This document shows positions 24,101 to 54,931 of a stretch of DNA of 64,000 nt, in pieces. The stretch is from the NCBI GenBank assembly GCA_902793555.1, contig CADBEF010000008.1, positions 420 to 64,419 on the forward strand. Direction: 5' to 3'. Source of the DNA: an uncultured bacterium. GTDB taxonomy: Bacteria; Verrucomicrobiota; Kiritimatiellia; RFP12; UBA3636. Made by a program: the position numbers and the translations under genes. A model generated the notes under the pieces. The model made no database searches, was not told where the DNA came from, and saw nothing but the letters and a program-made list of their open reading frames with translations. Every line of letters begins with the position of its first letter. Within the stretch, counting starts at the first letter, position 1.

Positions 24101-26730
24101 TCTCGGACGGCGACGGCAACCGCCTCCCCTTCGAGATCGACACGTGGAACCCGGAGGGCGAATCGCTCGTCTGGGTCCGGCTGCCCGTCTTCGCCGACGG
24201 CGCGACGATCCACCTCGACTACGGCGCCTCGGACGCCGACGGCACCGCGGACGCCGCGGACGTCTGGCGGCGCTATGTCGCCGTCTGGCACATGAACGAA
24301 ATCCGCACGGACGCCGCCACGGGCAGACGCTACACCCCCGACTCCTCCGCGAGCGGCTGGCACGCCTACAAGTCCGTCGAGGCGGATGCCGTGCCCGCGC
24401 CCGTCACCGTCGCGGCCGGCGCCACCGCGCAGCCGACGCCCCCGACCGGCAGGGCGATGAACGTCGCCTTCGGCGCGGGGAAGTCGGATACGTCCGTCGG
24501 CGGCTTCGCGGTCCCCGCGAGCCAGACCGCCTCCACGACGCTGAACGGCCCCGGTTTCACGCTTTCGGCCTTCGTCAACTCGCATCAGGCCGCGAACAAC
24601 GGCCGCTGCCGCGTCATCGCGTTCGGAAACGCCTACAACGACAAGGCAAATCTCGCGGTCGGCAGCGACAGGATCTACAGCATGGGATCCAACAGCCACA
24701 ACAAGACCAATCCGAAGGGCGCGACGGGCTGGGTCCACGCGGCGGCCGTCTTCGGTTCGCCGCGGTCGAAGATCTACGCCGACGGCGTCTGCCTTTCCGG
24801 CAACAACGACGGCAATCCCGACCTCGCGAGTCTCGCGCTCGACAAAGGCATCGGACTCGGCTGCTTCACGGACGGCACGCAAAGCCTCGACGGCTACATC
24901 GACGAGGCGCGCATCCGCAACGCCGCCTCGACCGCTTCGTGGGCCGCCGCCGAGTACGCCGCGATGGCGGACCCGGACGTCGTCCGCTTCGGCGGGGCGC
25001 GCTACCTCGAGATGCCGGTCCTCGAAGCGCCGCCTTCCCTGGCCTGGTACCGGAACGGGTTCGTCCACTCCGCCACCGTCGCCTACGGGCGCGGCGACGT
25101 GCTCCTCGCGACGGTCGACCTGTACGACGGTTCCGCGACCACGAACGCGGCGCACTCGTTCGATTCGGCCGCCTCGCTGCCGCAGGCGCTATCGGAGAAC
25201 GTCGAACTCCCGGAGAACCGGATGTACCGGGGCGTCGCGATTCTGCGCTCGCCGGACGGCTCGGAGGAAGATCTCGCGGCCGCCCGCGAGACGGTCTACT
25301 CCGGATCGATTTCCGTCACGTGGGTCCGGGACGCCGACATCGCGGCGATGACGCCCGCCATCGTCCGGCTTTCCCGCGCGGACACCGAGGCCGCGACCTG
25401 CGCGCCTCTCGAAGTGTCGTTCGCGCTTGCCGGCGAGGCGGTCTCGAAGGGCCTTGTCGAGCCCGTCGCGTCCGCGACGATTCCGGCCGGGGAAAGCTTC
25501 GTCGAGGTCGAGATCCGGCCGATCGCCCGGAGCGTCGTTCCCGGCGACTACCTCGCGACGCTGACGGTCGCGGGGACGAACGTCGCCCGTCCCGGCGCGC
25601 AGGTCGAGTTCGGCGTCCGCAACGCCGGCGCCGACCCCTACGTGCGCTACGTCGCCCCGAACGGCGACGACGGGAACGACGGCGCGCTCGCCACGACCCC
25701 CAAGCGGACCGTCGCCGCGGCCCTCGCCTCGTTCTCCGAGAACGCCCGGTCGGTGCTCTGCACGGTCCGCGTCGCCCCGGGCCTCTACCCGGTCTCCTCG
25801 CCGATCGTGCTCACGAACGCCGTCCGCATCATCGGCGACGACTCCGATCCGTCCCGCGTCGTCGTGTCGAACACGACGAACGTCGACTATTACAACCAAA
25901 ACCACCGGTGCATCCGGATCAACCATGCCGATGCCGTGGTTTCGGGAATGACGTTCGAGAACGGAAAAGACTACGGCAACGGCGGCAACCTCCGCATCGA
26001 CGCGAACGGAGGCATGGTCACCAACTGCATTCTGGTCAACGGTTACACGCGCGAAGGCAGCGATTCCGGCGGCGCGAACGTGGCGATCACGGGCCCCGGA
26101 CTCGTGACGCATTGCCGGATTCTCGGCGGCAGCCAGAACAACTGCAGCGGCTGCAAACGGGTGTCCTCGGTCTGTCTCGAGCATGCGGACGCCCGGATCG
26201 AGAACTGTCTCGTAAGCGGATTCCGGGGAGCGACGGTTTCCACCCAGCCAACCGTGGGATGCGCCGGAATCCTCGTCGACAAAGGAGCCGCGATCAACTG
26301 CATGGTCGTGGATTGCACGTCGCCCTACACGACGGCATCCGGCTTCGCGGGAATCCTGCTGTGGGCGAACGGTCGCGCCGTGGACTGCGTTTCGGTCGGC
26401 AACGTCGACAGCAACGGCACGGTCCGCGCGTTCATGGCGTCGCAGGCGACCCGCGCGATCAACTGCGCGTTCGACGCGATCGCCGGCGAGGCGGTCGTTC
26501 CGGAAGGCATGGTCGGCGCCGTCGTCGGCACGCCCGCGTCGTTCTTCCGCAACTACGCCCGCGGCGACTACCGCCCGCGCAGCGGCGGGCCGCTCGTGAA
26601 CGCCGGCGCGAACTACGAGCCGATGGCGGGCGTCGACCTCTCCGGCGTCCAGCCGCGCAAGGTCGGCTCCCGCGTCGACATCGGATGCTACGAAGCCTTC
26701 GCCGAAACTTCGATCCTGATCCTGAGATGA
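21139..26730 (+). CDS. Giant secreted multidomain protein (1863 aa): discoidin-like N-domain, Ig/FN3-like repeats, two right-handed beta-helix domains, DUF2341-like and LamG-like modules
   Basis: Signal peptide 'MKLRFLPAVAILLSLLAPAARA'. RBS AAGGAG 7 nt upstream of ATG. Beta-helix signature 'NQNHRCIRIDHAGAVVSG...GGMVTNCIL' occurs twice. Ends '...ETSILILR'. Confidence 0.85.
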   Translation: MKLRFLPAVAILLSLLAPAARAEEVTLPAGYVPVNLVTNVGGSASSDTKCLNNNSSYGVSRAFDKKYYSDDTRWIGHGSTFPQHAVWTFPDPTIVDTVRIYNASYDGAKQSPSDFTIAGSNDGSDWTTLDTESGVTGWSANKFRTFQFVNRTPYLKYRLEVTDVQGHSRMSISEIELYRVNQASFDVVPSGSPAVGIDSFSTDWILAVEEGSTADAGLVWSTDDSFATATTNSLGTGLAAGTRTASLADLEPATTYWWKIYADNGTDVAESTIGSFTTTGSPLFGAVSAASDGNAASFSVALAEAALGNTLSTSVSVLYGTDGETWTALPLGSSATPAAMSGTLENLDWGTTYQWFALATATMEGGRVLSTSTSTNSFTTLWDGDLYVSNGNASAEAPYSTWATAAPDIATAISLATDGATIHVAPGRYKISTSLSLAKAVRIVGNDADPSRVVVSNTGDVSYSEQNHRCIRIDHAGAVVSGLAFENGKVYGQGGNVLIGSNGGMVTNCILSGGYARSGTSSAGANVSIQGPGRVTHCTILGGWQNNCTGCTKTSSAHVGHADARMENCLVDGFRGSDVSSQATKNACGIYVEKGVAANCTVVNCTSPYTEASGFAGILIPTNDGLALNCVSVANADSNDTVRAFVPSQVSRTSHCAFDAIAGEAAVPEGMAGAVVGTPESFFPRFADDAIAAIKYRPGPSSPLLDAGEDYAPMAAFDLSGQQPRRVGASVDIGCYEDGYLAIEATGEPTVGLESFATDFVLGTDVPADVWIVWSADASFAAASTNRVAEGATNGVHEAAVGGLATDTAYWWKLVATNGVFAVETAPASFRTLGAPVIGTLSEAVSGPTVTFSVDLASVARDALGNGIRTYVTVFCSTNGTDWIEQSLGSAIRARTVLGAATLPNGVWTWYARASAESGGRTFAAESGTRTFRVFHNATPPAGFRRVDVEIAYDGEPAEDIPVLLRLSEAIEGFRYADVANDGRDFLFSDGDGNRLPFEIDTWNPEGESLVWVRLPVFADGATIHLDYGASDADGTADAADVWRRYVAVWHMNEIRTDAATGRRYTPDSSASGWHAYKSVEADAVPAPVTVAAGATAQPTPPTGRAMNVAFGAGKSDTSVGGFAVPASQTASTTLNGPGFTLSAFVNSHQAANNGRCRVIAFGNAYNDKANLAVGSDRIYSMGSNSHNKTNPKGATGWVHAAAVFGSPRSKIYADGVCLSGNNDGNPDLASLALDKGIGLGCFTDGTQSLDGYIDEARIRNAASTASWAAAEYAAMADPDVVRFGGARYLEMPVLEAPPSLAWYRNGFVHSATVAYGRGDVLLATVDLYDGSATTNAAHSFDSAASLPQALSENVELPENRMYRGVAILRSPDGSEEDLAAARETVYSGSISVTWVRDADIAAMTPAIVRLSRADTEAATCAPLEVSFALAGEAVSKGLVEPVASATIPAGESFVEVEIRPIARSVVPGDYLATLTVAGTNVARPGAQVEFGVRNAGADPYVRYVAPNGDDGNDGALATTPKRTVAAALASFSENARSVLCTVRVAPGLYPVSSPIVLTNAVRIIGDDSDPSRVVVSNTTNVDYYNQNHRCIRINHADAVVSGMTFENGKDYGNGGNLRIDANGGMVTNCILVNGYTREGSDSGGANVAITGPGLVTHCRILGGSQNNCSGCKRVSSVCLEHADARIENCLVSGFRGATVSTQPTVGCAGILVDKGAAINCMVVDCTSPYTTASGFAGILLWANGRAVDCVSVGNVDSNGTVRAFMASQATRAINCAFDAIAGEAVVPEGMVGAVVGTPASFFRNYARGDYRPRSGGPLVNAGANYEPMAGVDLSGVQPRKVGSRVDIGCYEAFAETSILILR

Positions 26731-27869
26731 AAACGCCTGTCCTTTCCGCCGACTTTCCCGGCGGCAACGTCCGCGTCCTCGGCATCGAGGGCGACACCGT
26801 CCACCTCGCGCCCGATCTGCGCGAGACGCAGCGCTTCTGGTTCTTCTGGCGCTTCCGCGCGACGTTCCCGGCCGCGGGGACATGGCGCTTCGAGTTCCCG
26901 GACGGCAATTGCGTCGGGACGCGCGGGCCCGCCGTGCGTCGAGCTGGCGAGCGTGCCTGGCGCTGGCTCTCCGGCGACGCGCTCCACGAGTCCGACCGCG
27001 TCTTCGAGTGGACGTCCGCCGGGACGGAGACGGTCGAGTTCTGCCAGTGCATCCCGTACCAGGGCGCGGACTTCGACGCGTTCGCCGCGTCCTTCGCGGG
27101 CGACCCGCGCGTCACGGTCGCCGAGCTCTGCCGCTCGCGCGCCGGGCGGTCCGTCCCGCTGCTCCGCCTGCGCGAAGGCGAGCCGGCGCAGGCGGTGCTC
27201 TTCACCTGCCGGCACCACGCGCAGGAGTCGATGGCGTCCTTCGCGCTCGAGGGACTGCTCCGCGCGCTCGCGTCGGACGAACCGTGGGCGGCGGCGTTCC
27301 GGGGCGCGTTCGAGGTCCTCGCGGTGCCGTTCGTAGACCGCGACGGCGTCGAGGACGGCACGCAGGGCAAGTTCCGCCTCCCGCACGACCACAACCGCGA
27401 CTACGGCGCGGCGGGCGGGCACCTCTACCCCGAGTGCGCGGCGCTCGAACGGCTCCTCGACGAGCGGCGGCCCGCCGCCGTGCTCGACCTGCACTGCCCC
27501 TACATCCGCGGCGGCGAGACGAACGAGCACGCCTACCTCGTCGGCATCCAGGCGGAGCGCCTGCGGCCCGCGCAGGCCGCCTTCGGCGCGCTGCTCGAGA
27601 GGCGCTGCCCGCCCGAGTCGCCCTACTTCGCCGCGGACACGCTCCCCTTCGGCGCGCTGTGGAACCAGCCGACCGACTTCTCCGGCGGCTCCGGCATGGG
27701 CTTCTCGCGCTGGGCGGCGGCGAAGCCCTGGCCGCGCCTCGCGAGCGGCATCGAAATCCCCTTCGCGAACTTCCGCGAGAAGACCCAGACGCCGGACACA
27801 ATCCGCGCATTCGGCCGCGGCATCGCCGCCGCCCTCGCCGAGTTTCTCGCTACGCCCGCAAGGGGTTGA
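26727..27869 (+). CDS. M14-like zinc hydrolase (carboxypeptidase / AstE-AspA-like fold)
   Basis: 'CRHHAQESMAS' (HxxE zinc motif), 'HDHNRDY', 'LDLHCPYIRGGE'. Start overlaps the giant gene stop (ATGA). No signal peptide. Confidence 0.65.
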   Translation: MKTPVLSADFPGGNVRVLGIEGDTVHLAPDLRETQRFWFFWRFRATFPAAGTWRFEFPDGNCVGTRGPAVRRAGERAWRWLSGDALHESDRVFEWTSAGTETVEFCQCIPYQGADFDAFAASFAGDPRVTVAELCRSRAGRSVPLLRLREGEPAQAVLFTCRHHAQESMASFALEGLLRALASDEPWAAAFRGAFEVLAVPFVDRDGVEDGTQGKFRLPHDHNRDYGAAGGHLYPECAALERLLDERRPAAVLDLHCPYIRGGETNEHAYLVGIQAERLRPAQAAFGALLERRCPPESPYFAADTLPFGALWNQPTDFSGGSGMGFSRWAAAKPWPRLASGIEIPFANFREKTQTPDTIRAFGRGIAAALAEFLATPARG

Positions 27870-27937
27870 CACCACCCCGCCACGCCCCGGGTGGGGTCGC
27901 ATGGCACGGATTCAGCCAAGATTCGGCACGGAAACAA

Positions 27938-27966
27938 TTGCCGCGTGTGCGCGCGTTCGCTATAAT
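27938..27966 (+). promoter_or_regulatory. Sigma70-like promoter TTGCCG-17-TATAAT
   Basis: ttgccg cgtgtgcgcgcgttcgc tataat, ~105 nt upstream of ATG 28071. Confidence 0.5.
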
Positions 27967-28012
27967 CGGTTTCAAACTTGTGGCCCTTCCGCCCTCGTCC
28001 GGCCGTACGCCA

Positions 28013-28073
28013 GCCCAGACCATCCAGACCATACGACCATACGACCATACGACCATCTGACCATCCGACCATG
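28013..28073 (+). repeat. Leader repeat array: seven degenerate 8/9-bp units (cagaccatc cagaccata cgaccata cgaccata cgaccatc tgaccatc cgaccATG) ending in the start codon
   Basis: Preceded by the conserved module 'cggccgtacgccagcccaga', which recurs at 37465-37487. Confidence 0.9.
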
Positions 28074-31000
28074 AAACGCATCCTCCCGCTCCTCCTCGCC
28101 GCCGCGGCCCTGTCCGCCCGCGCCACGGTCCAAGGCACCGACTTCGAAAAGAAGATCGCCTTCACCCCCTCGTCCACCGCGCTCGCGAAGATCGGCGAAA
28201 CGGCTTGGGCGGACTTCCCCGTCCTCGTGCGGCTTCCGGCCGCCGTTTCGTCCCAGTTGCAGAGCGCGAATGGGACCGACCTTTACGTCGAGGATGAGAA
28301 CGAAGTTCCGCTTGCGTTCGAGGTCGAGTCGTTTGACCCGGCCGGCACGACGCTCGTCTGGGTCAAGGTGCCGTCGCTTTCGTCCGCAACGGTGCTCAAC
28401 GTTTTCTTTGGCGGTTCAGCGAACGCCGACAACGACCCGACCGCCGTCTGGTCGAACTACGTCGGCGTGTGGCACTTCCCCGGCTCGGCCGCCGGAACGA
28501 CGACCGTCGCCGACGCGACCGGACACTCGCTCGACGGCACGACGACGGGCACGATTTCGACCTACGCCGGCCCGTTCGGCGGCGACACTCTCCAATGCAC
28601 CGAGAAAATCAACGCGCCGGACTACGATTCGCTGCTCTCCAACGTCGCGCAGTTCAGCGTCTCCGGCTGGTTCAAGGCGCCGAACCAGAGCAACGCGTAC
28701 TTCACGTACGTCTCGAAGAAGGCTGACCTGGCCTGGAACGCCGACAAGGGCTGGTATCTTGAAATGTCCCAAAGCAAGACCAAGGCGAACCTGGTCCTGA
28801 CCGGCTCGAACAACTTCACCATTCCGGACGTTTCGGCGAACTGGAACTACTTCCACCTCGTTTCGGACGGTTCGACGGTGAAGGTCTACATGAACGGCTC
28901 CACGAGCGCATCCAAATCGGTATCCTACAAGGTCAAGGCGAGCAGCAAGGTCTTCCTGATCTGCGGCAAGGACGGCTGCTCCGACGAATACCGCGTCCGC
29001 GCCGGCGCTGCGAGCGCGGCGGAGACCGCGCTCGAATACGCGACGATGGCCGATGCGGCGTTCTTCGACGCCGGCGCGATCGAGTCCGTGGATGCAACGG
29101 CGCAGGTCTTCGAGACGCCGACCGCCGTGCGCAACGCGAACGGCTCGACTACGGTCACGGTCGTCCTCTCCGCCTACAATGGCGACGTGGGCGTGATCTA
29201 CGAGGGCGGCGAGACGCCCGTCACGAACATCGTCGCGAACGCCGCCACGCCCGGCACCTACACGGACACGCCGGCGAATCTGGCGGCGGACACGACCTAC
29301 GCATTCTCCGCCTACGGAAAGAACGCGAACGACACCGAGGTCGTCAAAGCGGGCAACATCTTCTACAACGGCGACCTCTCCGTCACGACGGTCTCGGACG
29401 CGAACGAAAGCGGACTCGTCCCCGGCGTCTTCCGCATCTCGCGCGCCGATTCGGCGCACAACCTTACAGTGACCTACACTGTCGGTGGAACCGCCGTTGC
29501 GGACCAGTCCTACGTCGCGCTTTCCGGCACGGCGACGATTCCGGCCGGCGCAACGTACGTGGACGTGACCGTGACGCCGCTCAACGACCCGACCGTCACG
29601 GAGAACGTGTCGGTTGCGCTTTCTCTTGCGTCCGGACTTTACGGCATCTCGGCATCTGCCGGCACGGCGACGATGACGATCGCGAACCTGAACGCCCCCG
29701 CCGGCTTCAACACGTGGGTCGCGTCCGCGGCAGGCCTTGCGTCCGTCAGCAACAACTGGTCCGCCGGCCACCCGCCGAACGCCTCCGAACACGCTCTCTT
29801 CGACGGTCGCTTTTCTTCGGCGAACTGCGAGTGGGACGCCGCCGCATCTGCAACGGTCGCCTCTTGGACGCAGACGAACGACTACGCCGGCGTGATCACG
29901 CTCAAGACGGTCTATCCCGGCAAGGGCGACTTCCAGTGCCTGACCGTGACAGGGCCGATGGCGGTCATGAGCGGCACCATCACCCACCCGCAGTCGCGGA
30001 CACAGGGCCAGAGTGCGACGGATTACCTGCAGGACCTCCTCGACAACGAGACCTACCGCGTCCGCATCGACGCAGGGTCCCTCGTCATCGGACCGGACGG
30101 CCGGATCGACGCCCTCAACAAGGGCTACTACCATTCCAACACCGGCAGCCACACGTCGCCCGAGCCTTCCCACGGCGGACGTCTCTCCGCGTCCGGGCAG
30201 GCCCCCTACGACGACGTCAAGGAGCCGATCCACATCGGCATGCCCTACAAGCGGGATAGCGGCACCTACTATATCGGCATCGGCGGCGGCGCAATCTATC
30301 TCACGTCGACCGGCGCCATCGTCGTGAACGGCTACATCGGGGCCGACACGGGTTCCGACACGTGGAACCGCGGCTACACGCTCCGCGGCGGCGCGGCGGC
30401 GGGCTCCGTCTATGTCCGCGGCGCCTCCGTCACCGGCTCCGGCACGATCTCCGCAAGCGCGCTGAAGACGGACGAGCAGAAGTACCGCGGCGTGGGCGGT
30501 CGCGTCGCCGTCATCGCCACCTCTTCGACGCCGATCGACTACACGACACTCCAGCTCAAGGCAACGGTCTATCCGTTCAACAACAACAACGGGCAAAGCT
30601 CGACATACGGCGGGTGCGGCACGGTCTTCGTCAAGGACGGCACGATGACGAACGGCGTCCTCATCGTGCGGAATTTCGACCTGACCTTCGCCGAAGACGC
30701 ATCTGGACGCCGGACCGATGTCACGGCCGAAGGCGACTGGACCTTCGATCGGCTCGAGCTGGGAGGAGGGGTGCAGTTGTCCGTTCCCTACGGAACGACC
30801 CTCACGCTCCCCGGCTGGGACTGCGTGACGGCCCCGGCCAACAACACCGGCACCGGAACGCCATCCGGGTTCATCTACCGGGGCGGAACGCTCGACTTCG
30901 GCTCCGCCGCGGAAGTCATGTTCTCCGGCCACTGGTATTTCGCCCCGATTTCGAACTACGTCTTCAACGCGGACGTCTCGCTCGCGGACGGCGCCGCGAT

Positions 31001-32000
31001 CGGCTTCGGCGGGAAATACACGCAAAAGATCGCCAACAACGCTTATCCTGACAAGCTCGACAAGATCCAGTGCACCGTGAACGGCAATCTGACTATCCCG
31101 TACGGGTGCTCCGTCAATGTCAACCAGGCCGGCGCCATGCAGGACAGCCACGGCGTGCCCGCTGACTACCCGCAGGGGGCGCACGGCGGGCGCCGCTCGA
31201 ACACGATGAAGACGATCGGCTCGGCGTTCCATCCCCGGACCTTGCCGCACGGTCAGTCGAACAGCTACGGATGGATCATCCCGGGAGGGGCGGTCGAGCT
31301 CGTAGTCTCAGGGACACTGACCCTCGGCGGCACCATTGAATCGACCGCCTACACTGGGAACGACGGCACCAAGTCCGAGGTCGGCGGCGGATCGATTGAC
31401 ATCACGGCCGGGCGACTTGCGGGCGACGGCTCGATCAAGGCGGGGGCCGTCAAGGACGGCCAGCCGGGCGGCCGCATCGCCATCCATCTGACGGGCGTTG
31501 GTGCAACGTTTGATGATTTCGATGGAGCTGTCAACTGCGCCACGCTGGGAGCTGGCAGCATAGGTTCATGCGGTTCGATCTACATAGAGACTGCAGCAGA
31601 CGGCGATAGGCGCGGAACGGTCATCCTTGACGACAACAACGTGACCTGCACGACCTACACGCCCATCTGCGCGACGGGCTACGAAGCGGATGACGTCGCC
31701 GACTTCCGGCACGCGGATCTCGTCGTCCGGAACCAGGCCAAGGCGCAGGTGGCCGTCGCCGACGACAAAGGGACCTTCACGATGGACAACGTCGAAATCG
31801 ACGAAACCGGCGCGCTCGACCTGTTCGGGAACCGCTTCGTCGTCACGTCCGCGAGGATCGGCGGAAAGAACGTCCATACCGGCACCTACACGGCCGCGCA
31901 GCTCGCCGCGCTCGGCTTCCCGCAGGTCGTCGACACCGACGAGAACGCCGCCGGAACGCTCGTCATCCGCGGCGCGGCGACGGTGCTCATCGTGAAATAG
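28071..32000 (+). CDS. Giant secreted DUF2341/LamG-like protein (1309 aa) with a C-terminal beta-helix-like region
   Basis: Signal peptide 'MKRILPLLLAAAALSARA'. 'VWVKVPSLSSATVLNVFFGG...VGVWHF' DUF2341-like module. Ends '...GAATVLIVK'. Confidence 0.85.
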   Translation: MKRILPLLLAAAALSARATVQGTDFEKKIAFTPSSTALAKIGETAWADFPVLVRLPAAVSSQLQSANGTDLYVEDENEVPLAFEVESFDPAGTTLVWVKVPSLSSATVLNVFFGGSANADNDPTAVWSNYVGVWHFPGSAAGTTTVADATGHSLDGTTTGTISTYAGPFGGDTLQCTEKINAPDYDSLLSNVAQFSVSGWFKAPNQSNAYFTYVSKKADLAWNADKGWYLEMSQSKTKANLVLTGSNNFTIPDVSANWNYFHLVSDGSTVKVYMNGSTSASKSVSYKVKASSKVFLICGKDGCSDEYRVRAGAASAAETALEYATMADAAFFDAGAIESVDATAQVFETPTAVRNANGSTTVTVVLSAYNGDVGVIYEGGETPVTNIVANAATPGTYTDTPANLAADTTYAFSAYGKNANDTEVVKAGNIFYNGDLSVTTVSDANESGLVPGVFRISRADSAHNLTVTYTVGGTAVADQSYVALSGTATIPAGATYVDVTVTPLNDPTVTENVSVALSLASGLYGISASAGTATMTIANLNAPAGFNTWVASAAGLASVSNNWSAGHPPNASEHALFDGRFSSANCEWDAAASATVASWTQTNDYAGVITLKTVYPGKGDFQCLTVTGPMAVMSGTITHPQSRTQGQSATDYLQDLLDNETYRVRIDAGSLVIGPDGRIDALNKGYYHSNTGSHTSPEPSHGGRLSASGQAPYDDVKEPIHIGMPYKRDSGTYYIGIGGGAIYLTSTGAIVVNGYIGADTGSDTWNRGYTLRGGAAAGSVYVRGASVTGSGTISASALKTDEQKYRGVGGRVAVIATSSTPIDYTTLQLKATVYPFNNNNGQSSTYGGCGTVFVKDGTMTNGVLIVRNFDLTFAEDASGRRTDVTAEGDWTFDRLELGGGVQLSVPYGTTLTLPGWDCVTAPANNTGTGTPSGFIYRGGTLDFGSAAEVMFSGHWYFAPISNYVFNADVSLADGAAIGFGGKYTQKIANNAYPDKLDKIQCTVNGNLTIPYGCSVNVNQAGAMQDSHGVPADYPQGAHGGRRSNTMKTIGSAFHPRTLPHGQSNSYGWIIPGGAVELVVSGTLTLGGTIESTAYTGNDGTKSEVGGGSIDITAGRLAGDGSIKAGAVKDGQPGGRIAIHLTGVGATFDDFDGAVNCATLGAGSIGSCGSIYIETAADGDRRGTVILDDNNVTCTTYTPICATGYEADDVADFRHADLVVRNQAKAQVAVADDKGTFTMDNVEIDETGALDLFGNRFVVTSARIGGKNVHTGTYTAAQLAALGFPQVVDTDENAAGTLVIRGAATVLIVK

Positions 32001-32010
32001 CTTCCGTCTT

Positions 32011-32042
32011 CGCCCGGCGCCCGCGTCGGCTTCGGCCGGGCG
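32011..32042 (+). terminator. Hairpin cgcccggc-N16-gccgggcg downstream of the giant gene
   Basis: 8-bp perfect GC stem, 11 nt after the stop. Weak U-tract. Confidence 0.3.
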
Positions 32043-32218
32043 TCGCGGTTCCGTCCGAAGGAAGGACCGACATGGCAGAATCCTCGCAAGTGGCAGCCGC
32101 CGACCACGCGCGCCCCGGGCCCGACTGGCGCGCGGCGGGCGGCCTCTTCCATCTCTTCGAAGCGCTCTGGCGCGGATTCTGCCAGGGTTCGGCGCTGCCA
32201 GGCCTCCGTTTCGCGCGC

Positions 32219-32248
32219 TTGACACGCGCGCGGGGAGTTTGGTAGGTT
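32219..32248 (+). promoter_or_regulatory. Sigma70-like promoter TTGACA-18-TAGGTT (paralog of 21028-21057) plus a conserved leader and GGAG RBS
   Basis: cttgacacgcgcgcggggagtttggtaggtt. The ~110-nt leader is ~75% identical to the leader upstream of 21139. Confidence 0.45.
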
Positions 32249-32327
32249 TCGACCTGAAGGGACGCCCCATCCGGGCGGACCTGCTTTCAAAGCCCGTCAA
32301 TCACCCGGTTGACACGTGGAGATTCCC

Positions 32328-35300
32328 ATGAAACATCCGTTCGCTCTCGTTGCGGCCGCGCTTCTCGCGGGCGCGCTCGTTCTCCCCTCCGCGCGCGCGG
32401 CGGACGCGGACGCCACCGGCCTCGTGCCCACGATCTGGTGGGACTTCGAGACCAAGCCCAGCGCCTCGGGCCTCGCCACGGCGAACAAGGGCGCGACCTA
32501 CCAGGCGGGCGTCACGAACGGCTGGGCCGTTGACACGTCGAAGTTCACGCCGTATTCGCAGGCGAACGGCGCCTTCTCGACGGCCGGCGGCGCCTACACC
32601 GTGTCCCTCGTCATGAACCTCGGGACGACCAAGAACGGCATCACGCTGAACCTCCGCAATGAAACCGGCGAAAGGGACCTGATCGTCCGCCGCGGTTCGA
32701 CCGCGGGCTCGCTCGTCGTCGGCTGCGACGTCTGGAAGGTCGCCACAAGACACAATCTCACGACGACGTTCGAGGACGACTCGACCTACCATCTCGTCTC
32801 CGTCGTCGTGGAGGAGTCTGGCTTCTCGCTCTACGTGGACGGCGAGTTCGTCGGGTCCGAGACGGGCTTCACCCTGTGGACCGCCACGGGCCGCGCCAGC
32901 CGCCTCCAGTTCGGTGCGCACCTCAGCGGCATGCCCTCCGGCGAGGCGAAATACGGCGGCTGCATCGACGACCTGCGCATCCACGACGCGGCGCTCACGC
33001 CCGCGCAGATGAAGCTGATCGCCGCCGAATACGGCCTTGCCTCCATCGATGGCTTCATCGCCGTCGTCCCGTCCGGGGAACCGACGGTCGGAACGGATTC
33101 CTTCCGCGCGCCGTTCGCCCTGCGCGTGCCCGAGGGCGACGCGGCCGAGGCCGCGATCGTCTACGGCACGGACGCCGCGCTGTCGGCCCCGGCCACGAAC
33201 GTCGTCGGTTCGGCGCTGACGGCCGGCAACTACGAGGCGTTGCTTCCCAATCTCGTGTCTGGCACGACCTACTGGTGGAAGATCGTCGCGAGCAACGGCG
33301 TCAACCGGGCCGAGACGGACGTTGCGTCATTCCGCACGCTCGACGTGATCGTCCCGACGGACTACGCCAGGCGCATTCCCGCCGTCCTCTCCGGCTATGC
33401 CGGAACGGATACGCTCACGAATTTCCCCGTTCTCGTGAAGCTCGCGGCGGACGCGCCCATCGGCTTCGACTACGCCGACTGCGCGGAGGATGGCGCGGAC
33501 ATTCGCTTCGCGACTCCGGACGGCACGGTGCTGCCGCACGAGATCGACACGTGGAACACGAACGGCGAGTCGTTCGTCTGGGTGAAGATCCCGGCGATCT
33601 CCGGTACCGCTACGGCGTTCTCGATGTACTACGACGCGCCGGACCCGGCGGCGCTTCCGCCGGTCGATCCGCACGACGTCTGGACCGCGGCCGGGCACCG
33701 CGCCGTGTGGCACTTCGCGACAAACGCGACGGAATCCGCGCAGGGTCTGGTCGCCTCCACGGCCACCGGCACGCCGTCCTACGCGAACGACGGCGCCGTC
33801 GGCAAGTGCTGGCAGAGCGCGGGCGAGGCGTGGTTGCAGTACGCCAACGACGCCTCGTGGAGCGCACTCGGCGCGGGTTCGACGCTCACGATTTCCACCT
33901 GGGCCAAGTTCGACTCCACTTCCTATGGCTACAACCGCATCCTCTCCACGATGTCGACCTGGGAACAGCCGGCCGGCTACGAATTGACCGTCCAGGACGA
34001 CAAGAACGAGATCACCGTCGGATCGAGCGGGAAAAGCCAGTACCAGAAGGTCGTTTCGCCGGGCCCGTCGGACGAGATGGTCTACCTCACGGCCGTCTAC
34101 AACGCCGACCGCTACGCGGACCTCTACGTGAACGGCGTCCGGCAGGAGCACAAGCAGCTCAACGCGGTCGTGCAACCGACGGAGACGATGACGGTCGCCT
34201 GTTTGGCCGGCGGCGGCAACGTCTGGAACGGCTCCCTGGACGAGCTCCGCCTCCACGCGGCCGCCGAATCGGCCGACTGGGTCAAGGCCTGCTACGACAC
34301 GATGGCGACGCCGGCGTCGTTCGTCGCCCTCTCGCCGGCCGAGTCGACCGACCCCGACCTGCCGCGGTTCGGCGCGCTCTCCGCGTCCGATGCGAACGGC
34401 GTCGCAACCTTCACCGCTCCGCTCGCCGTGCCCGGCTACGGCGGCGAAGTCCCGACCTCCGTCTCGGTCTTCTACGGGACGGACGGCGAAACCTGGACGG
34501 AGCTTTCCCTCGGTTCGACGAACGAGGCCGCGACGCTGACCGTCTCGGCGTCCGGGTTCGCGGTCGGCGTCCGGTACCTCTGGTACGCCGTCGCCACCGC
34601 GACGAGCGGCGGCACGCCCAAGACGACGGTCTCCCAGCCGCAGTCGTTCGTCGCCAGGGCCTTCGATCCGACGGGGAACTACAAGTCCTTCACGGCGACC
34701 GTCGTCTGGGACGGCGCGCCCGCGGAGAACCTCCCGTTCCTGCTGCGCATCTCCGAGGGCGGCGTCAACGGCTTCGACTACGACGACGTCACGGCGTCCG
34801 GCCTCGAGATCCTCGACGCGGACGGACAGCTGCTTCCCTTCGAGATCGACACGTGGAACACGAACGGCGAATCGCTCGTCTGGGTCCTCCCGCCCGTCTA
34901 CGAGGACGGTGCGACGGTCACGGTCCGCTACGGCGCCCCGTTCGCCAACGCGCCGCTCCCCGCGACGAACGTCTGGACGGCCTATGTCGCCGTGTGGCAC
35001 ATGAACGAAATCCTCGTGGACGCCGAGTCCGGCAACCACTACACGCCCGATTCCACCGCGAGCGGCTGGCATGCCTTCAAGTCCGACGAGGCGGACGCCG
35101 TTCTGTCGCCTGTGACAACCGCGCCCGGCGCCTCCGCGCATCCGACGCCCCTCACCGGAACGGCGATGAACATCGCCTACGGCGCAGGGAAGTCGAGCTC
35201 GTCCCTCGGCGGCTTCCGCGTCCCGGCGGACCAAACCTCCTCGACCACGCTGGACGGCCCCGGCTTCACGCTCTCCGCCATCGTCAACTCGCAGCAGGCC

Positions 35301-37375
35301 GCCAACGACGGCCGCTGCCGCGTGATCGCCTTCGGAAACGAATACAACGACAGGGCCAACTTCGCGGTCGGCTCCGACAAGATCTACTGCATGGGATCCA
35401 ACTCCCACAACAAGACCAATCCGAAGGGCGCGACGGGCTGGGTCTACGCCGCGGACGTCTTCAACTCGCCGTATTCGAAGATCTACGCCGACGGCGTCTG
35501 CCTTTCCGCCAGCAACGAGGGCAACCCCAACCTCGCTAGCCTCACGCTCGACAAGGGCATCGGCCTCGGCTGCTTTACGGGCGGCAAACAGTGCCTCGAC
35601 GGCTACCTCGACGAGGCGCGCATCCGCAACGCGGCTTCGACCGCCGACTGGATCGCCGCCGAATACCACACGATGGCGGACGGCGCCGTCTCCTTCTCCT
35701 CCGTTTCGTCATCCGACACGTCCGTCCCCGTTCTCGGGACGCCGTCCGTCGCGCGCAACCCGGACGGCTCGTTCACCGTCTCGGTCGCCGTTTCCGAAAA
35801 CGACCCCGCGTCGATCGCCTGCATGATCGGAGGGACCGACTACGCGATGACGCCCGCGAACGCATCGCTCCCAACGACGTATTCCGCCACGGTTTCCGAT
35901 CTCGCGCCCGGCACCTACGTCGCGTCCGTCCATGCGACGGCGACGAGCGGAACGTCCGTTTCCTCGACCTGCCCGGACGCCTTCCACGCCGGAGCGCTGA
36001 CGATCGTAAAGATTTCCGACGCCGACGAAGGCACGCTCTCGCCCGGCGTCTTCCGTGTCTCGCGTGCGGACGCCGATTCCACGAGCCTGCCGGCGCTGAC
36101 GTTCGACGTGGCGTTCTCCGGCCCCGGGCTCGCCGGGATCGCCGATCCGGGGATTTCGGCCGCCACGATCCCCGCCGGCGCGGCGTATGTCGACATCGCC
36201 GTCACGCCCATTCCGAACGATGCCGTGAACGAGAATCTCGAACTCGTCCTGACCGTCTCGGGCGCGCACGTCGGCCAATCCTCCACCGCCTCGCTGACCG
36301 TCGTGAACTCGAGTTTCGACCTGGCGGTCCGCTACGTCGCCACGACCGGCAACGACGCCAACTCCGGCGGCACGCCCGAGTCTCCCAAGAAGACGATCGC
36401 CGCCGCCGTCGCCGCCCTCGGCCCCATCGCGCCGACGCGGACCTGCACCGTCCACGTCGCGCCGGGGCTGTACCCGATCACGTCGCCGATCGTCGTCACG
36501 AACGCGATTTCCGTCATCGGCGATGATTCGGACCCTTCGCGCGTTATCGTATCGAATACAGTGCCAAGTGGCAACGCAAGCCAGGAACATCGGGTGTTTA
36601 TCATTGCGAATGCCGACGCTCTTATAGCCAACCTGACGATGCAGAAGGGCGAAGCCTACAGCCGGAACGGGGGCAACTTCAACATCGGCACGGCTGGCGG
36701 CATGGTTTCCAATTGCGTGGTGGAAGCGGGCTATGCACGCGACAACGGAAAGGCGGCCGGTGCCTGGCTCGATGCGGGCGTCGTCACGCACACGGTCTTC
36801 CGGAAGAACTATTCGAGTGCCGGATCCGTCACCTGGGAGGGCGTTCGTGCGGGGCTTCTCCAGCTCAACGGCCAGGCCCGCGCCGAAAACTGCCTCTTCG
36901 TCCAGAACAACCAGACCGCATCCGTCCGGCTGATCAACGTGCACGGCTCCTCGGTCATGCGCAACTGCACGATCGCCGATTCGTCCCTTTCGAAGACGAA
37001 TGACGCCTGCACGACGTGGTGCGTACTCAACATCGCCTCCGGCGCGACCGTGCAGAATGTCGTGATCGCCGGCGTGACGAACACGATCGACGGCGCGACC
37101 TGCGCGATCACGGGGACCGTCGCGAACTTCCGGAACGGCGCGTTCGACGGCGACGCGACACGGCGGCTTCGTTCTTCCCGCACTACGCGAAGAACGTCCC
37201 CTACGCGATCAAGTACCAACCCAAGGCCGGCGGCCCGCTCTACGACAAGGGCGCCGACTACGCGCCGATGGCCGCGTTCGACCTCTCGGGGACGCAGAAG
37301 CGCAAGATCGCCTCGCATATCGACATCGGCTGCTACGAGGCGAACGGAGCTGCAACGGTGGTCATCGTGAAATGA
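32328..37375 (+). CDS. Giant secreted LamG/DUF2341/beta-helix protein, paralog of 21139-26730. Carries an apparent -1 frameshift near 37155-37170, so it is a possible pseudogene or a sequencing error
   Basis: Signal peptide 'MKHPFALVAAALLAGALVLPSARA'. Main frame runs to ~37160 ('...NGAFDGDAT'). The authentic C-terminus '...ASFFPHYAKNVPYAIKYQPKAGGPLYDKGADYAPMAAFDLSG...GCYEANGAATVVIVK' is in the -1 frame (ORF 37016-37375). Relative to the paralog, a ~45-nt, non-triplet deletion sits at this point. Confidence 0.6.
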
Positions 37376-37458
37376 ACCCCGTCCTTTCCGCGGACTTTCC
37401 CGGCGGCGGCGCGGTGGTGCTCGGCCCCGACGGCGCAACCGTCCGCCTCGCGAACCCA
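37372..37458 (+). pseudogene. Remnant of the M14-like gene 5' end (first ~29 codons: 'MNPVLSADFPGGGAVVLGPDGATVRLA'), fused in-frame to the downstream leader repeat and GH16 gene
   Basis: Nucleotide and protein homology to 26727-26815 ('MKTPVLSADFPGGNVRVLGIEGDTVHLA'). Homology ends at ~37458, where the 'cgtacgccag...gaccatcc' leader module begins. Confidence 0.6.
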
Positions 37459-37483
37459 ACGCCCATCGTTCGGTCGTACGCCA

Positions 37484-37512
37484 GTCCAGACCATCCGGAC
37501 CATCCGACCATG
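37484..37512 (+). repeat. Leader repeat (cagaccatc cggaccatc cgaccATG) ending in the GH16 start codon
   Basis: Same family as 28013-28073, with the same upstream 'cggtcgtacgccagtcca' module. Confidence 0.9.
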
Positions 37513-38406
37513 GACACTTCACTCGACTCCCTCCCCCTCGTCTGCGAAACGGCGGACGCCGTCCCCGGCCACGAGCCGAGCCTGCTGCCGCCCGGGCGGA
37601 AATGGACGCTCGCCTGGAACGACGAGTTCGACGGCGACCGCCTCGACGAGACGAAGTGGCGCTTCCGCACGAACTTCTGGGGCCGCCGCGCGCACTGGTT
37701 CGCGACGCCGGAGGACGGCGCCGTCGAGGTCCGCGACTCGCTCTGCCGGCTCAAGCTCGTGAAGAAGCCCGACGGACAGTTCGTCACGCCGCAGCTGCAG
37801 ACCGGCGAGCTCGTCTGGGACATCCCGCACGAGAAGGAACCGAAGGGCTTCTGGCCGCTCCCGAAGCGCGAGCCGCCGACGTTCATGCACCGCTACGGCT
37901 ACTACGAATGCCGCTGCCGCACGCAGCAGATGCCGGGCTGGTGGACGGCCTTCTGGATGCAGGCGCCGATGCAGGGCTGCTCGCTCGACCCGCGCCGTGC
38001 GGGCATCGAGCACGACATCATGGAGTCGTTCGAGCCGGGGACTCTCATCCCGCACTACTTCCACGCGAACGGCTACGGCGACGACTACGCCCCCTTCCAC
38101 ACGCCCCGCGCGGCGGAGATGAGCGACACGCTCTCGTTCGACAAGGCCGCCTTCCACCGCTTCGGGATGCTCTGGGAGCCCGACGGCTACACGATCTACA
38201 TCGACGGCCGCCAGCACGGCGAGAAGGTCGGCGGCGGACCCGGCGAGGCCGTCTCGCAAACCGAGGAGTTCGTCCTGATCTCCGCCGAGGCGAAGTGGTA
38301 TCGCGACCGCCACATGACCGGCGAGGGCGTCCCTGAGCTCGAGGACGCCTGGCGCGCCGGCGACGCCTTCCTCGTCGACTACGTCCGCGTCTTCGATCCC
38401 GCCTAG
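37510..38406 (+). CDS. GH16 beta-glucanase-like protein (no signal peptide)
   Basis: GH16 catalytic motif 'GIEHDIMES'. 'WTLAWNDEFDGDRLDETKW' N-terminal region is typical of GH16. Start placed at the ATG ending the leader repeat; an in-frame upstream extension to 37372 exists (see the pseudogene remnant). Confidence 0.8.
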   Translation: MDTSLDSLPLVCETADAVPGHEPSLLPPGRKWTLAWNDEFDGDRLDETKWRFRTNFWGRRAHWFATPEDGAVEVRDSLCRLKLVKKPDGQFVTPQLQTGELVWDIPHEKEPKGFWPLPKREPPTFMHRYGYYECRCRTQQMPGWWTAFWMQAPMQGCSLDPRRAGIEHDIMESFEPGTLIPHYFHANGYGDDYAPFHTPRAAEMSDTLSFDKAAFHRFGMLWEPDGYTIYIDGRQHGEKVGGGPGEAVSQTEEFVLISAEAKWYRDRHMTGEGVPELEDAWRAGDAFLVDYVRVFDPA

Positions 38407-38411: not shown

Positions 38412-38493
38412 CTAGCCCATCCAGACCATCCCGACCATCCCGACCATCCCGACCATCCCGACTATCCAGACCATCCAGACCATCCCGACCATG
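38412..38493 (+). repeat. Tandem array of nine 9-bp units (consensus GACCATCCC; one 'gactatcca' variant) ending in the ATG of the GH10-like gene
   Basis: cccatccagaccatcccgaccatcccgaccatcccgaccatcccgactatccagaccatccagaccatcccgaccATGccc. Confidence 0.95.
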
Positions 38494-39933
38494 CCCTCCC
38501 CGCTCTCCCCCGCCTACTACGACCGCTGGAACGCCGACGAACAGGCGCGCATCGACGCGGACATCGAGAAATACCGCAAGGCCGACGCGACCGTCGCGCT
38601 CGGTGCCCCCGCCGGCGCCGAGGTGACGGTCGAACAGACCACGCACGCGTTCCGCTTCGGCGCGCACACGTTCAACTTCGACCAGCTCGGCTCGCACGAG
38701 CGCAACGAGCGCTACAAGGCGCTCTGGAACGGCGCCTTCGCCGACGGCGCGCTCTTCAACTCCGGCACCATCGCGTTCTACTGGCGCCCGTTCGAGCCCG
38801 TCGAGGGCAAGATGCGCTTCGACCCCGCCCCCGAGGACTCGGAGGACTGGTGGAACGCCTGCCCCGACCCGAAGGAGCAGCGCTTCTGGCGCCGCCCGCC
38901 GAGCGAGCCCGTCGTGCGCTTCCTGGAGGACAAGGGCGCCTGGCGCCACGGCCACCCGCTCGTCTGGTCCAACCACGAATGGCACTATCCGGACTGGCTC
39001 ATGGCGAAGCTCCCCAAGGAGATCATGGCCGAGATGCTCACGGACGACCGTTCCGGCGTCTCGATCATGAAGCAGCCGATGGAGACGGTCCTCAAGCGGC
39101 TCCCCGCGGACTTCCCCGCCCAGGTCGAGTCCGCGCACCGCCGCCGCATCGAGGCCATCGCCGCGCGCTACGCCGACCGCGTGGACAGCTGGGACGTCTG
39201 CAACGAGAGCGCGAACGACTGGACCGCCGGCCGGCTCGTCCGCGGCGCCCCGCTCTCCCGCAGCTACCGCTTCTCGTGGCTGCCCGGCGACTACTGCCAC
39301 TGGGCCTTCCGCGAGTGCATGCGCCTCTTCCCCGCGAAGAGCGTCCTCTCGATCAACGACTACCAGCTCGACGCCGACTACGCCGAGCAGACGCGCGACC
39401 AGCTCGCCCGCGGCGACAAGATCGACCTGCAGGGCATGCAGATGCACCTGTTCAACCCCGCGGACTGCGAGGCGATCGCGCAGGGGAAGATCGAGCTGCG
39501 CTCGCCGGCGCACGTCCGCTCGCAGATCGCCGCCGCGCACGCGCGCCCCGGCCTGCCGATCCACCTCTCCGAGATCACGATCTCCGCGCCCGGCGGCGAC
39601 GAGCGCGGCGAGGTCGTCCAGGCCGAGATCGCCCGCAACCTCTACCGCCTGTGGTTCTCGCTGCCGGACATGGTGGCCATCACCTGGTGGAACGTCGTCG
39701 ACGACTGCGGCGCGCCCGGCGAGCCGTCCGTCTCGGGGCTCTTCCGCCGCGACATGACGCCGAAGAAGGCCTTCTTCGCGCTCGACCGCCTGATCAACGA
39801 CGAGTGGCGCACGCGCCTCACGGCGAAGGCCGACGCCACCGGCGCCGTCGCCTTCCGCGGCTTCCGCGGCTCCTACCGCCTCTCCTGGCGCGACGCCTCC
39901 GGCGCGTCCTGCGAAGCAACCACATCCATCTAG
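38491..39933 (+). CDS. GH10-like glycoside hydrolase (clan GH-A), xylanase-type motifs
   Basis: 'WDVCNE' (catalytic acid motif WDVVNE-like) and 'HLSEITISA' (nucleophile ITE-like). No signal peptide. Confidence 0.7.
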   Translation: MPSPLSPAYYDRWNADEQARIDADIEKYRKADATVALGAPAGAEVTVEQTTHAFRFGAHTFNFDQLGSHERNERYKALWNGAFADGALFNSGTIAFYWRPFEPVEGKMRFDPAPEDSEDWWNACPDPKEQRFWRRPPSEPVVRFLEDKGAWRHGHPLVWSNHEWHYPDWLMAKLPKEIMAEMLTDDRSGVSIMKQPMETVLKRLPADFPAQVESAHRRRIEAIAARYADRVDSWDVCNESANDWTAGRLVRGAPLSRSYRFSWLPGDYCHWAFRECMRLFPAKSVLSINDYQLDADYAEQTRDQLARGDKIDLQGMQMHLFNPADCEAIAQGKIELRSPAHVRSQIAAAHARPGLPIHLSEITISAPGGDERGEVVQAEIARNLYRLWFSLPDMVAITWWNVVDDCGAPGEPSVSGLFRRDMTPKKAFFALDRLINDEWRTRLTAKADATGAVAFRGFRGSYRLSWRDASGASCEATTSI

Positions 39934-44744: not shown

Positions 44745-44793
44745 CGTCGGATGCGTTTTGTTGCAGTGATTTCAAGCGCCCGGCGCGGCGGCG

Positions 44794-54924: not shown

Positions 54925-54931
54925 GGGCCCC

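What the first reader, a model, noticed from the sequence alone, without database searches (positions are those of the whole stretch)
37372..37512. Rearrangement junction: M14-gene remnant fused to a portable leader module and GH16 gene
The stretch 37372-37458 is homologous at DNA and protein level to the first ~29 codons of the M14-like gene at 26727 (MNPVLSADFPGGG... versus MKTPVLSADFPGGN...). In both copies this ATG overlaps the stop of a giant gene (ATGA). In copy B homology stops at ~37458 and switches to 'cggtcgtacgccagtccagaccatccggaccatccgaccATG'. That is the same module found upstream of the giant gene at 28071 ('cggccgtacgccagcccagaccatccagaccat...'). So one copy has lost the M14 body, promoter and giant gene 2. 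This leaves an in-frame M14-Nterm::DHP-leader::GH16 fusion ORF (37372-38406), translationally coupled to the giant gene.
Basis: seen in the sequence. Interest (0 to 1): 0.75.

Follow-up and report, generated by a model that had tools for sequence, protein, structure and literature searches.

The report
Gene stub at a rearrangement scar
A 27-29 codon leftover of a carboxypeptidase-like gene sits between a giant surface-protein gene and a glycoside hydrolase (GH16) gene in a rumen Kiritimatiellae genome. It marks the edge of a 9.6 kb strain-specific block, and the annotated "fusion protein" is most likely a gene-calling artefact, not a new enzyme.

Summary
Window 37372-37452 matches the 5' end of the M14-like gene at 26727 (alignment score 74 against a null of 17-19, null maximum 39). 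Window 37459-37511 matches the 5'-UTR and leader upstream of giant gene 2 (about 88% identity).

- All close GH16 homologues, including proteins 93-96% identical, start at the internal ATG 37510. None has the 46-residue extension. All three frames are stop-free across the stub, so being in frame is a one-in-three accident.
- In close relatives (RUG10674 and 12 metagenome contigs of two further strain types), an intact M14 gene abuts the same leader and GH16. The stub therefore lies at the right edge of a 9.6 kb block (27864-37485: promoter, giant gene 2, giant gene 3, stub) that splits an M14-GH16-GH10 operon in this strain only.
- The stub is not a decayed copy of the resident M14. Its middle resembles a more distant M14 lineage.
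- Whether the block was inserted here or deleted in the relatives is unresolved.
- In this window a 28 bp deletion frameshifts giant gene 3. The ATGA overlap holds only in the homologous frame and in sister contigs.

The more interesting by-product is the leader: variable tandem arrays of 8-9 nt units (GACCATCC plus 0-1 further base) that end in the start codon and act as recombination sites.

The parts
37228..37375 (+). 3' tail of giant gene 3, read in the homologous frame (...DIGCYEANGAATVVIVK*, stop TGA 37373-37375). It is paralogous to the tail of giant gene 1 (26583-26730).
   Evidence: blastn; frame translations; orthologue tails
37158..37159 (+). Site of a 28 bp deletion relative to sister contig L001. 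It shifts the frame of giant gene 3, so the long ORF in this window ends at TGA 37368-37370.
   Evidence: called as 1680 aa in the 86 kb source contig against 1702 aa in two other contigs
37372..37452 (+). Stub of an M14-like (cytosolic-carboxypeptidase-like) gene: the first ~27 codons, whose ATG forms ATGA with the stop of the homologous giant-gene frame.
37453..37458 (+). Novel joint (AACCCA). M14 homology has ended and leader homology has not yet begun.
   Evidence: alignments
37459..37484 (+). u': a 26 nt piece of transcribed 5'-UTR, homologous to 27989-28014 upstream of giant gene 2. The promoter itself is absent here.
   Evidence: absent from all other loci fetched
37485..37509 (+). Leader array, about 3 units of GACCATCC plus 0-1 further base, running into the ATG (...GACCATG). 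Identical in relatives L003 and L172, where homology with the window resumes at 37486.
37510..38406 (+). GH16 gene proper (298 aa), with the EHDIME motif. The start is shared with all close homologues.
26727..27869 (+). Intact resident M14-like gene (380 aa). Its ATG overlaps the stop of giant gene 1 as ATGA. This is the reference copy for the stub.
27864..37485 (+). Strain-specific 9.6 kb block, absent from RUG10674, L172-type and L179-type relatives. It holds a predicted hairpin, a promoter (27938-27966), u (27989-28014), a leader array (28018-28070), giant gene 2 (28071-32000), the promoter of giant gene 3, giant gene 3, the stub and u'.

Best explanation
Window 37372-37509 is a non-coding rearrangement scar, not the N-terminus of a fusion enzyme. 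It has three pieces.
- The first ~27 codons of a second, divergent M14-like gene ("M14b"). It was once translationally coupled to giant gene 3 by an ATGA overlap, in the way the intact M14 is coupled to giant gene 1.
- A novel joint (37453-37458) to the last 26 nt of a 5'-UTR whose promoter was lost.
- A short tandem-repeat leader array whose last unit supplies the real GH16 start codon at 37510.

The joint is best explained by a deletion that removed the M14b body and the promoter part of a downstream leader. This step is inferred.

The scar now forms the right edge of a 9.6 kb block (27864-37485). That block interrupts an M14-leader-GH16-leader-GH10 operon which is intact in close relatives. 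This step is shown.

GH16 is expected to be made from ATG 37510, on a transcript that starts at the promoter of giant gene 3 or further upstream. The leader array gives it an unstructured initiation region. Ribosomes ending giant gene 3 could occasionally restart at 37372 and make a 46-residue-longer GH16, but nothing indicates this form is selected. These last points are inferred.
For: **Homology on both sides of the joint**
- Far above chance.
- The stub covers only the first 27-29 residues of a 380-aa protein. That protein matches bacterial M14 carboxypeptidase structures 3L2N, 4B6Z and 3K2K from residue 6 onwards and Pfam PF00246 at residues 128-213.

**GH16 start**
- The closest homologues start at the residue encoded by 37510.
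- The 298-aa form occurs on many contigs.
- All three frames are open across the stub.

**Relatives**
- L003 (RUG10674, 94-97% nucleotide identity) runs from the M14 3' end through TAGAC into the same leader and GH16.
- Seven contigs of the L172 type and five of the L179 type carry GH16. Those reaching far enough upstream show an M14 of 378 aa, then an 18-26 nt leader, GH16 and GH10. Three short contigs show only a partial, unidentified upstream ORF.
- M14-GH16 adjacency also occurs in distant genomes L005 and L054.

**Promoter and leader**
- There is no promoter-like site in 37372-37509. The homologous copy has TTGCCG-17-TATAAT at 27938-27966.
- Other genes carrying such arrays start exactly at ...GACCATG.
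- Array leaders fold weakly: 0 to -7 kcal/mol for positions -40 to +20, against -20.9 +/- 6.4 for background.

**Origin of the stub**
- Its middle (VVLGPDGATVRL) matches a more distant M14 lineage (L083: VVLGRDGATVRL), not the resident M14 (RVLGIEGDTVHL). It therefore comes from a different M14 copy.

**Not an assembly artefact**
- The junction is present in three independently assembled contigs of 86, 47.6 and 40.5 kb.
Against: - No transcript or protein data exist, so a minor or even major extended GH16 isoform cannot be excluded.
- The ORF is in frame. In sister contigs it overlaps the stop of giant gene 3 as ATGA, which is a good arrangement for coupling.
- No genome with an intact M14b downstream of giant gene 3 was found. 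Four orthologues (77-83% amino-acid identity) are followed by other genes. The deletion step is therefore inferred, not observed.
- The GH16 leader is short (3 units) and its initiation region is more structured (-14.4 kcal/mol) than the other array leaders.
- The polarity of the 9.6 kb difference is unresolved. The four-taxon GH16 tree is unresolved, with bootstrap support of 46% against 40% for the two placements.
Confidence: 0.75

Rival explanations
1. A tandemly duplicated unit (giant gene, M14, promoter, leader) lost its M14 body, promoter and giant gene 2 in place. This created a functional, translationally coupled fusion protein of M14 N-terminus, leader peptide and GH16.
For: - Both homologies are real.
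- The ORF is in frame and has been called as a 344-aa protein in public data.
- The ATGA overlap is present in sister contigs.
- The order M14 then U is repeated as stub then u'.
Against: - No homologue carries the extension, and proteins 93-96% identical start at 37510.
- All frames are open, so being in frame is a one-in-three chance.
- Relatives show the resident M14 directly upstream of GH16, with no promoter module between them.
- The extension carries no recognisable signal peptide or domain (one search finds only GH16).
Confidence: 0.12
2. The stub is kept as a functional upstream coupling ORF. It hands ribosomes from giant gene 3 on to GH16, compensating for the lost promoter or ribosome entry site.
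For: - ATGA or a one-base gap to the giant-gene stop.
- An analogous case exists in L172. There giant gene 1 is reduced to an in-frame 22-codon mini-ORF that still overlaps the M14 start by ATGA.
Against: - There is no sequence variation among the three contigs on which to test selection.
- The array leader alone serves other genes.
- The frameshifting 28 bp deletion upstream is tolerated in the window strain.
Confidence: 0.1
3. The junction is an assembly chimera, formed through the short repeated leader.
For: The leader repeats occur at several gene starts.
Against: - The same junction is found in three contigs from separate assemblies.
- The shared repeat is about 50 nt, shorter than the final k-mer implied by the k141 contig names.
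- The joint lies outside the repeat, between the stub and u'.
Confidence: 0.02

Closest known systems
Gene remnants (truncated pseudogene fragments) at indel or rearrangement boundaries in bacterial accessory loci
   Same: - A short 5' fragment of a gene, with its original upstream context kept.
- An abrupt switch of homology at a novel joint.
- Presence or absence polymorphism among close strains.
   Different: - The fragment happens to be in frame with the next gene, so it has been annotated as part of it.
- The joint lands in a repeat-array leader that is itself a recombination substrate.
Intergenic TAACTGA heptamer direct repeats upstream of start codons in marine Beggiatoaceae, some Cyanobacteria and Bacteroidetes (MacGregor 2015, PMC4679880)
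   Same: - Sense-oriented tandem short repeats lying within a few nucleotides of start codons.
- Occasional copies inside ORFs.
- A proposed role in translation.
[quoted passage not shown]
   Different: - Different unit (GACCATCC plus 0-1 further base, 8-9 nt; other units also occur) and different phylum (Kiritimatiellae).
- Here the last unit contains the ATG itself.
- Arrays fill whole intercistronic spacers.
- Copy number varies between strains, and arrays demonstrably mediate a deletion (GH2 in L172 and L179).
Translational coupling through overlapping stop and start codons (ATGA)
   Same: The M14 start overlaps the stop of giant gene 1. The stub keeps the same overlap with giant gene 3 in the homologous frame.
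   Different: In copy B the downstream cistron is only a stub that runs on into another gene. In this window the overlap is offset by a frameshift upstream.

Membership tests
Peptidase M14 (cytosolic-carboxypeptidase-like subfamily): the stub at 37372-37452 | Complete N-terminal beta-sandwich domain plus the zinc carboxypeptidase catalytic domain | tested here: not met
   Only residues 1-27 align with M14 homologues. Pfam finds no M14 domain in the 344-aa ORF. It is a fragment, not a member.
Peptidase M14 (cytosolic-carboxypeptidase-like subfamily): the intact gene at 26727-27869 | Significant match to the M14 profile and to solved M14 structures, including the N-terminal domain | tested here: met
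   PF00246 scores 22.5 bits against a cut-off of 21.6. PDB 3L2N gives E 1.6e-08 over residues 6-228, and 4B6Z and 3K2K also match. Catalytic residues were not checked.
Glycoside hydrolase family 16: 37510-38406 | GH16 profile match and the ExDxxE catalytic motif | tested here: met
   PF00722 scores 37.2 bits against a cut-off of 22. The motif EHDIME is present in the translation. 1691 homologues were found.
Fusion or extended-GH16 protein family | The N-terminal extension is conserved in homologues | tested here: not met
   Homologues cover only residues ~47-344 of the ORF. Their N-termini are either the same MDTSLDSLPLVC start or unrelated signal peptides.
Start-codon-proximal tandem repeat leaders (TAACTGA-type class) | Sense-oriented tandem short repeats ending within a few nucleotides of start codons of many genes | tested here: met
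   A screen found 20 candidate arrays abutting an ATG of an ORF of at least 100 aa, in the window and close relatives. A few are chance ORFs on the opposite strand. 16 of 20 GACCAT-type arrays end in ATG.
Start-codon-proximal tandem repeat leaders (TAACTGA-type class) | Repeat unit TAACTGA | tested here: not met
   Units here are GACCATCC plus 0-1 further base, GTGAAGA, TCCCTCG and GAATGCT. Same kind of element, different family.
Any curated RNA family (Rfam 15) | Match at the gathering threshold | tested here: not met
   No hits in the whole window.

The most novel reading that the evidence does not exclude
In this Kiritimatiellae clade, tandem arrays of 8-9 nt units (GACCATCC plus 0-1 further base) may be a lineage-specific translation-initiation device. 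They are Shine-Dalgarno-free and unstructured, and their last unit carries the ATG. Because they sit in front of many genes, they may also serve as portable recombination sites through which gene cassettes are inserted, deleted and re-headed. Giant surface-protein genes and glycoside hydrolase genes would be among those cassettes. On this reading the scar at 37372-37509 is one fossil of such array-mediated shuffling.
Probability: 0.35. Interest if true: 0.6.

Novelty: new member of a known kind. Interest (0 to 1): 0.35.

Why it matters
**Practical.** The 344-aa "GH16" in public protein collections is probably mis-started by 46 codons. The stub should be annotated as a pseudogene fragment.

**Biological.**
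- The locus shows how fast polysaccharide-degradation and surface-protein loci of rumen Kiritimatiellae are remodelled. Two multi-kilobase blocks are present or absent between strains that are 94-97% identical.
- One giant gene exists as 1863 aa, 746 aa and a 22-codon mini-ORF.
- One glycoside hydrolase gene (GH2) has been cut down between two repeat arrays.

**Follow-up.** The repeat-array leaders are the part worth pursuing. They suggest an undescribed way of starting translation in a 70% GC genome, and a built-in substrate for operon shuffling.

Tried and rejected
- **Chance similarity.** Rejected by the shuffle and background tests.
- **Assembly chimera.** Rejected: three independent contigs carry the junction, and the joint lies outside the repeat.
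- **Stub as an in-place decayed copy of the resident M14.** Rejected. The stub is 78-80% identical to the M14 5' ends of the window and L179 over 82 nt (64/82 and 66/82). Orthologous M14 genes of these strains are 94-96% identical. The middle of the stub matches another M14 lineage.
None found.
- **Polarising insertion against deletion.**
  - The GH16 tree of window, L003, L172 and L179, rooted with L163, L165 and L166, is unresolved.
  - More distant GH16 orthologues have unrelated upstream genes.
  - Neighbours downstream of M14 homologues vary.
  - Orthologues of giant gene 3 have varied downstream genes.
  - GC3 of giant genes 2 and 3 (0.86-0.90) is below the backbone genes (0.94-0.98), but giant gene 1 is also low at 0.91. 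Composition is therefore not decisive.
- **Junction sequence.** Relatives carry TAGAC between M14 and the array, and this is not found at either window boundary. That mildly favours insertion with a small target loss, but a 2 nt indel plus one substitution could also derive it from the window's TTGAC.
- **Rfam.** No hit.
- **Literature.** Searches for Kiritimatiellae leader repeats found nothing relevant. Two searches failed on term syntax.

Full report
**Setting.** The window is about 70% GC. It comes from an 86 kb contig of an uncultured rumen Kiritimatiellae bacterium. Gene order around the finding:

| Feature | Coordinates | Notes |
|---|---|---|
| Giant gene 1 (G1) | 21139-26730 | 1863 aa |
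| M14-like gene | 26727-27869 | 380 aa; ATG overlaps the G1 stop as ATGA |
| Intergenic region | 27870-28070 | sigma-70-like promoter at 27938-27966, then a tandem-repeat leader |
| Giant gene 2 (G2) | 28071-32000 | |
| Giant gene 3 (G3) | 32328 to ~37375 | has its own promoter and 5'-UTR |
| The finding | 37372-37509 | |
| GH16 | 37510-38406 | |
| GH10 | 38491-39933 | |
| GH2 | 39973-41649 | |

- One blastn alignment joins 26583-26810 to 37228-37452 (71%, E 8e-27). It crosses the giant-gene stop codon into the first ~27 codons of M14.
- The M14 part alone scores 74. Nulls give 17-19 (sd ~3.3, maximum 39).
- From 37459 the homology switches to 27989-28040 (about 88%), the transcribed part of the G2 leader.
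- The 22-mer core of that leader is found only at these two window sites. Among 170 loci fetched from elsewhere it occurs only in L001 and L002, two overlapping stretches of one sister contig (k141_515630) of the same strain.
- The joint lies at 37453-37458.

**One correction.** In this window the long G3 ORF ends at TGA 37368-37370, not in the ATGA.
- The homologous C-terminal frame (...DIGCYEANGAATVVIVK*) does end at 37373-37375.
- It is reached only after a frameshift, caused by a 28 bp deletion at 37158/9 relative to the 99.7% identical contig L001.
- G3 is 1702 aa in two sister contigs and 1680 aa in the source contig.

**Is the fusion ORF a real protein?** Probably not.
- The search with the 344-aa ORF returned 1691 GH16 homologues. 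The closest cover only residues ~47-344.
- Proteins 78-85% identical begin MSTTQLESLPLVC or METLEQLPLVC.
- Cluster members 93-96% identical begin MDTSLDSLPLVC or MDTPLDSLPLVC. That is the methionine at 37510, giving 298 aa.
- In another strain a gene caller also ran through the leader array, giving 323 aa that begin MQEPDRTTIPTIPAMDTPL. Stop-free arrays are easily absorbed into ORF calls.
- All three frames are open over 37376-37509, so being in frame is a one-in-three event.
- ATG 37372 has no array. Its initiation region is more structured (-16.5 kcal/mol) than the array-led starts, which fold at 0 to -7 except for GH16's own short leader at -14.4.
- Restart after G3 termination is mechanistically possible and cannot be excluded without expression data.

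**What do relatives show?**
- RUG10674 (L003, 94-97% nucleotide identity) reads M14 3' end (matching window 27636-27861), then AAGTAGAC, then CCAGACCATCCGGACCATCCGACCATG, then GH16, GH10 and GH2.
- Seven contigs from different samples (L172-L178) carry a GH16 that is 94.6% identical. Six of them carry M14 (378 aa), a 26 nt leader, GH16 and GH10; L175 breaks off inside an uncharacterised 172-aa ORF at the GH10 position. L178 has only a partial, unidentified ORF upstream.
- Five more contigs (L179-L183) carry a GH16 that is 93.6% identical. L179 and L180 show the same order with an 18 nt leader. L181-L183 are too short to show an identified M14.
- Homology with the window breaks at 27861-27863 and resumes at 37486-37495.
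- The window strain therefore carries a 9.6 kb block (27864-37485) inside an otherwise contiguous M14-GH16-GH10 operon. The finding is the right-hand end of that block.
- M14-GH16 adjacency recurs in a distant Kiritimatiellae MAG (L005) and in a Bacillota MAG (L054). The pair is therefore an old, probably functional unit.

**Where does the stub come from?** It is not a copy of the resident M14.
- The first 36 nt are 35/36 identical to the L179 M14 start. The next 34 nt are only 20/34.
- In that middle stretch the peptide (AVVLGPDGATVRL) matches M14 genes of a more distant lineage (L083: IVVLGRDGATVRL).
- G3's own tail is orthologous to the tails of G3 orthologues (77-85% identity).
- The stub is best read as the 5' end of a second giant-gene-coupled M14 ("M14b").
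- No genome with G3 followed by an intact M14b was found. Four G3 orthologues (77-83% amino-acid identity) are followed by Peptidase_C10 genes (two of them), a polysaccharide deacetylase gene, or a leader array plus another giant gene.

**How did the joint arise?**
- The order M14, promoter U, u, array in copy A is mirrored by stub, u', array in copy B.
- The simplest origin of the joint is a deletion from M14b codon ~28 to 26 nt before the array. It would have removed the gene body and the promoter. This is inferred.
- Two histories fit the comparison with relatives.
  - (a) The block, already carrying the scar, was inserted between the M14 stop and the GH16 array, with the right crossover inside the array.
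  - (b) The block is ancestral and was deleted once in the common ancestor of RUG10674, L172 and L179.
- The GH16 tree does not resolve whether the window is sister to the other three or nested among them (46% against 40% bootstrap).
- For (a): relatives carry TAGAC at the junction. This is a normal array-type unit containing the stop codon, as at the GH10/GH2 junction, and it is absent from both window boundaries. Also, no G2 or G3 protein at 90% identity or above was found outside the window strain.
- For (b): the relatives show repeated erosion of this locus.
- I put (a) at about 55% and (b) at about 45%.

**The leader.**
- Arrays of 8-9 nt units (GACCATCC plus 0-1 further base) precede ATGs at 8137, 28071, 37510, 38491 and 39973. 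They always end in ...GACCATG.
- The same is seen in L003, L166, L168, L171, L172 and L179, in sense orientation on either strand.
- Copy number varies between strains. The GH10 leader has 8.4 units in the window and L172, against 7.4 in L003 and L179; L001 is one unit shorter than the window. The GH2 leader has 5.4 against 9.7 units.
- Most array-led initiation regions are almost unstructured: 0 to -7 kcal/mol, against a background of -20.9 +/- 6.4. The short GH16 leader is the exception at -14.4.
- G1 and G3 instead have GGAG-type sites.
- An in-frame array lies inside GH2 (40635-40675, encoding DHPDHPDHPTIQT). RUG10674 has a different repeat, (CTCGTCA)n, at the same place.
- L172 and L179 lost GH2 codons 1-221. 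L172 12414-12451 matches both arrays, as expected if recombination between the upstream and internal arrays removed them.
- The arrays are therefore both leaders and recombination substrates.
- The closest published analogue is the TAACTGA repeats upstream of start codons in Beggiatoaceae (PMC4679880).
- Rfam has no match.

**Verdict.** The fusion-gene reading is unlikely. The feature is an ordinary gene remnant at the edge of a strain-specific block. The repeat-array leaders it exposes are the more interesting lead.

Noticed in passing
window 8115-8139, 28018-28073, 37485-37512, 38417-38493, 39917-39975; also L003, L166, L168, L171, L172, L179: Sense-oriented tandem arrays of 8-9 nt units (GACCATCC plus 0-1 further base) fill intercistronic spacers and end exactly in the start codon (...GACCATG). 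Copy number differs between near-identical strains. Most such initiation regions are predicted to be almost unstructured; the short GH16 leader is the exception.
   Followed up: partly
window 19356-19422 (+); 9788-9828 and 10014-10054 (genes on the - strand); 49003-49135: Other tandem heptamer arrays also abut candidate start codons of long ORFs: (GTGAAGA)x9.6, (TCCCTCG)n and (GAATGCT)n. The first lies before the GH20 start. In (GAATGCT)n every unit contains an ATG. The arrays at 49003-49135 (units CGGGATT and CGAAACC) were not checked against gene starts.
   Followed up: no
window 40635-40675 (inside GH2, 39973-41649); L003 3421-3525; L172 12414-12519; L179 12405-12510: An in-frame leader-type array sits inside GH2, between the immunoglobulin-like domain and the TIM barrel. 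RUG10674 has a different repeat, (CTCGTCA)n, at the same site. L172 and L179 lost the GH2 N-terminus, apparently by recombination between the upstream and internal arrays, leaving a remnant (a 33-aa ORF is called in L179).
   Followed up: partly
window 37158/37159: A 28 bp deletion relative to sister contigs frameshifts the last ~70 codons of giant gene 3. This gives 1680 aa against 1702 aa, with an arginine-rich out-of-frame tail. It could be a real strain variant or an assembly error.
   Followed up: partly
window 21139-26730; L179 6609-8849; L172 8770-8841: Giant gene 1 exists in three sizes among close strains, and all keep the ATGA overlap with M14. The sizes are 1863 aa, 746 aa (an internal deletion between repeated beta-helix regions) and a 22-codon in-frame mini-ORF with a TTG start.
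   Followed up: partly
window ~26550-26738: The last ~180 nt of giant gene 1 plus the first 3 codons of M14 form a divergent patch. The L179 and L172 tails are closer to the window's giant gene 3 tail (77-85%) than to the window's giant gene 1 tail (68-72%). This suggests gene conversion among giant-gene tails.
   Followed up: partly
window 41650-59714: A second block of about 18 kb lies between GH2 and an FAD-oxidoreductase gene. It is absent from RUG10674, L172 and L179, which all rejoin the window at 59715-59718.
   Followed up: no
L005 7758-9878; L054 8886-10801: An M14-like gene lies directly upstream of GH16 in a distant Kiritimatiellae MAG and in a Bacillota MAG. This points to a conserved functional pairing of unknown meaning.
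   Followed up: no
GH16 homologues P0001-P0004 and P0081 against P0008-P0079: The closest GH16 clade, including the window protein, has no signal peptide. More distant homologues (60-75% identity) carry clear N-terminal signal peptides.
   Followed up: no
window 26640-26730, 37290-37375; L167-L171 giant-gene ends: All giant proteins end in a shared ...DIGCYE motif followed by a short hydrophobic stretch and K or R. There is a weak, below-cut-off match to the NCBIfam choice-of-anchor Q domain. This may be a C-terminal sorting signal.
   Followed up: no
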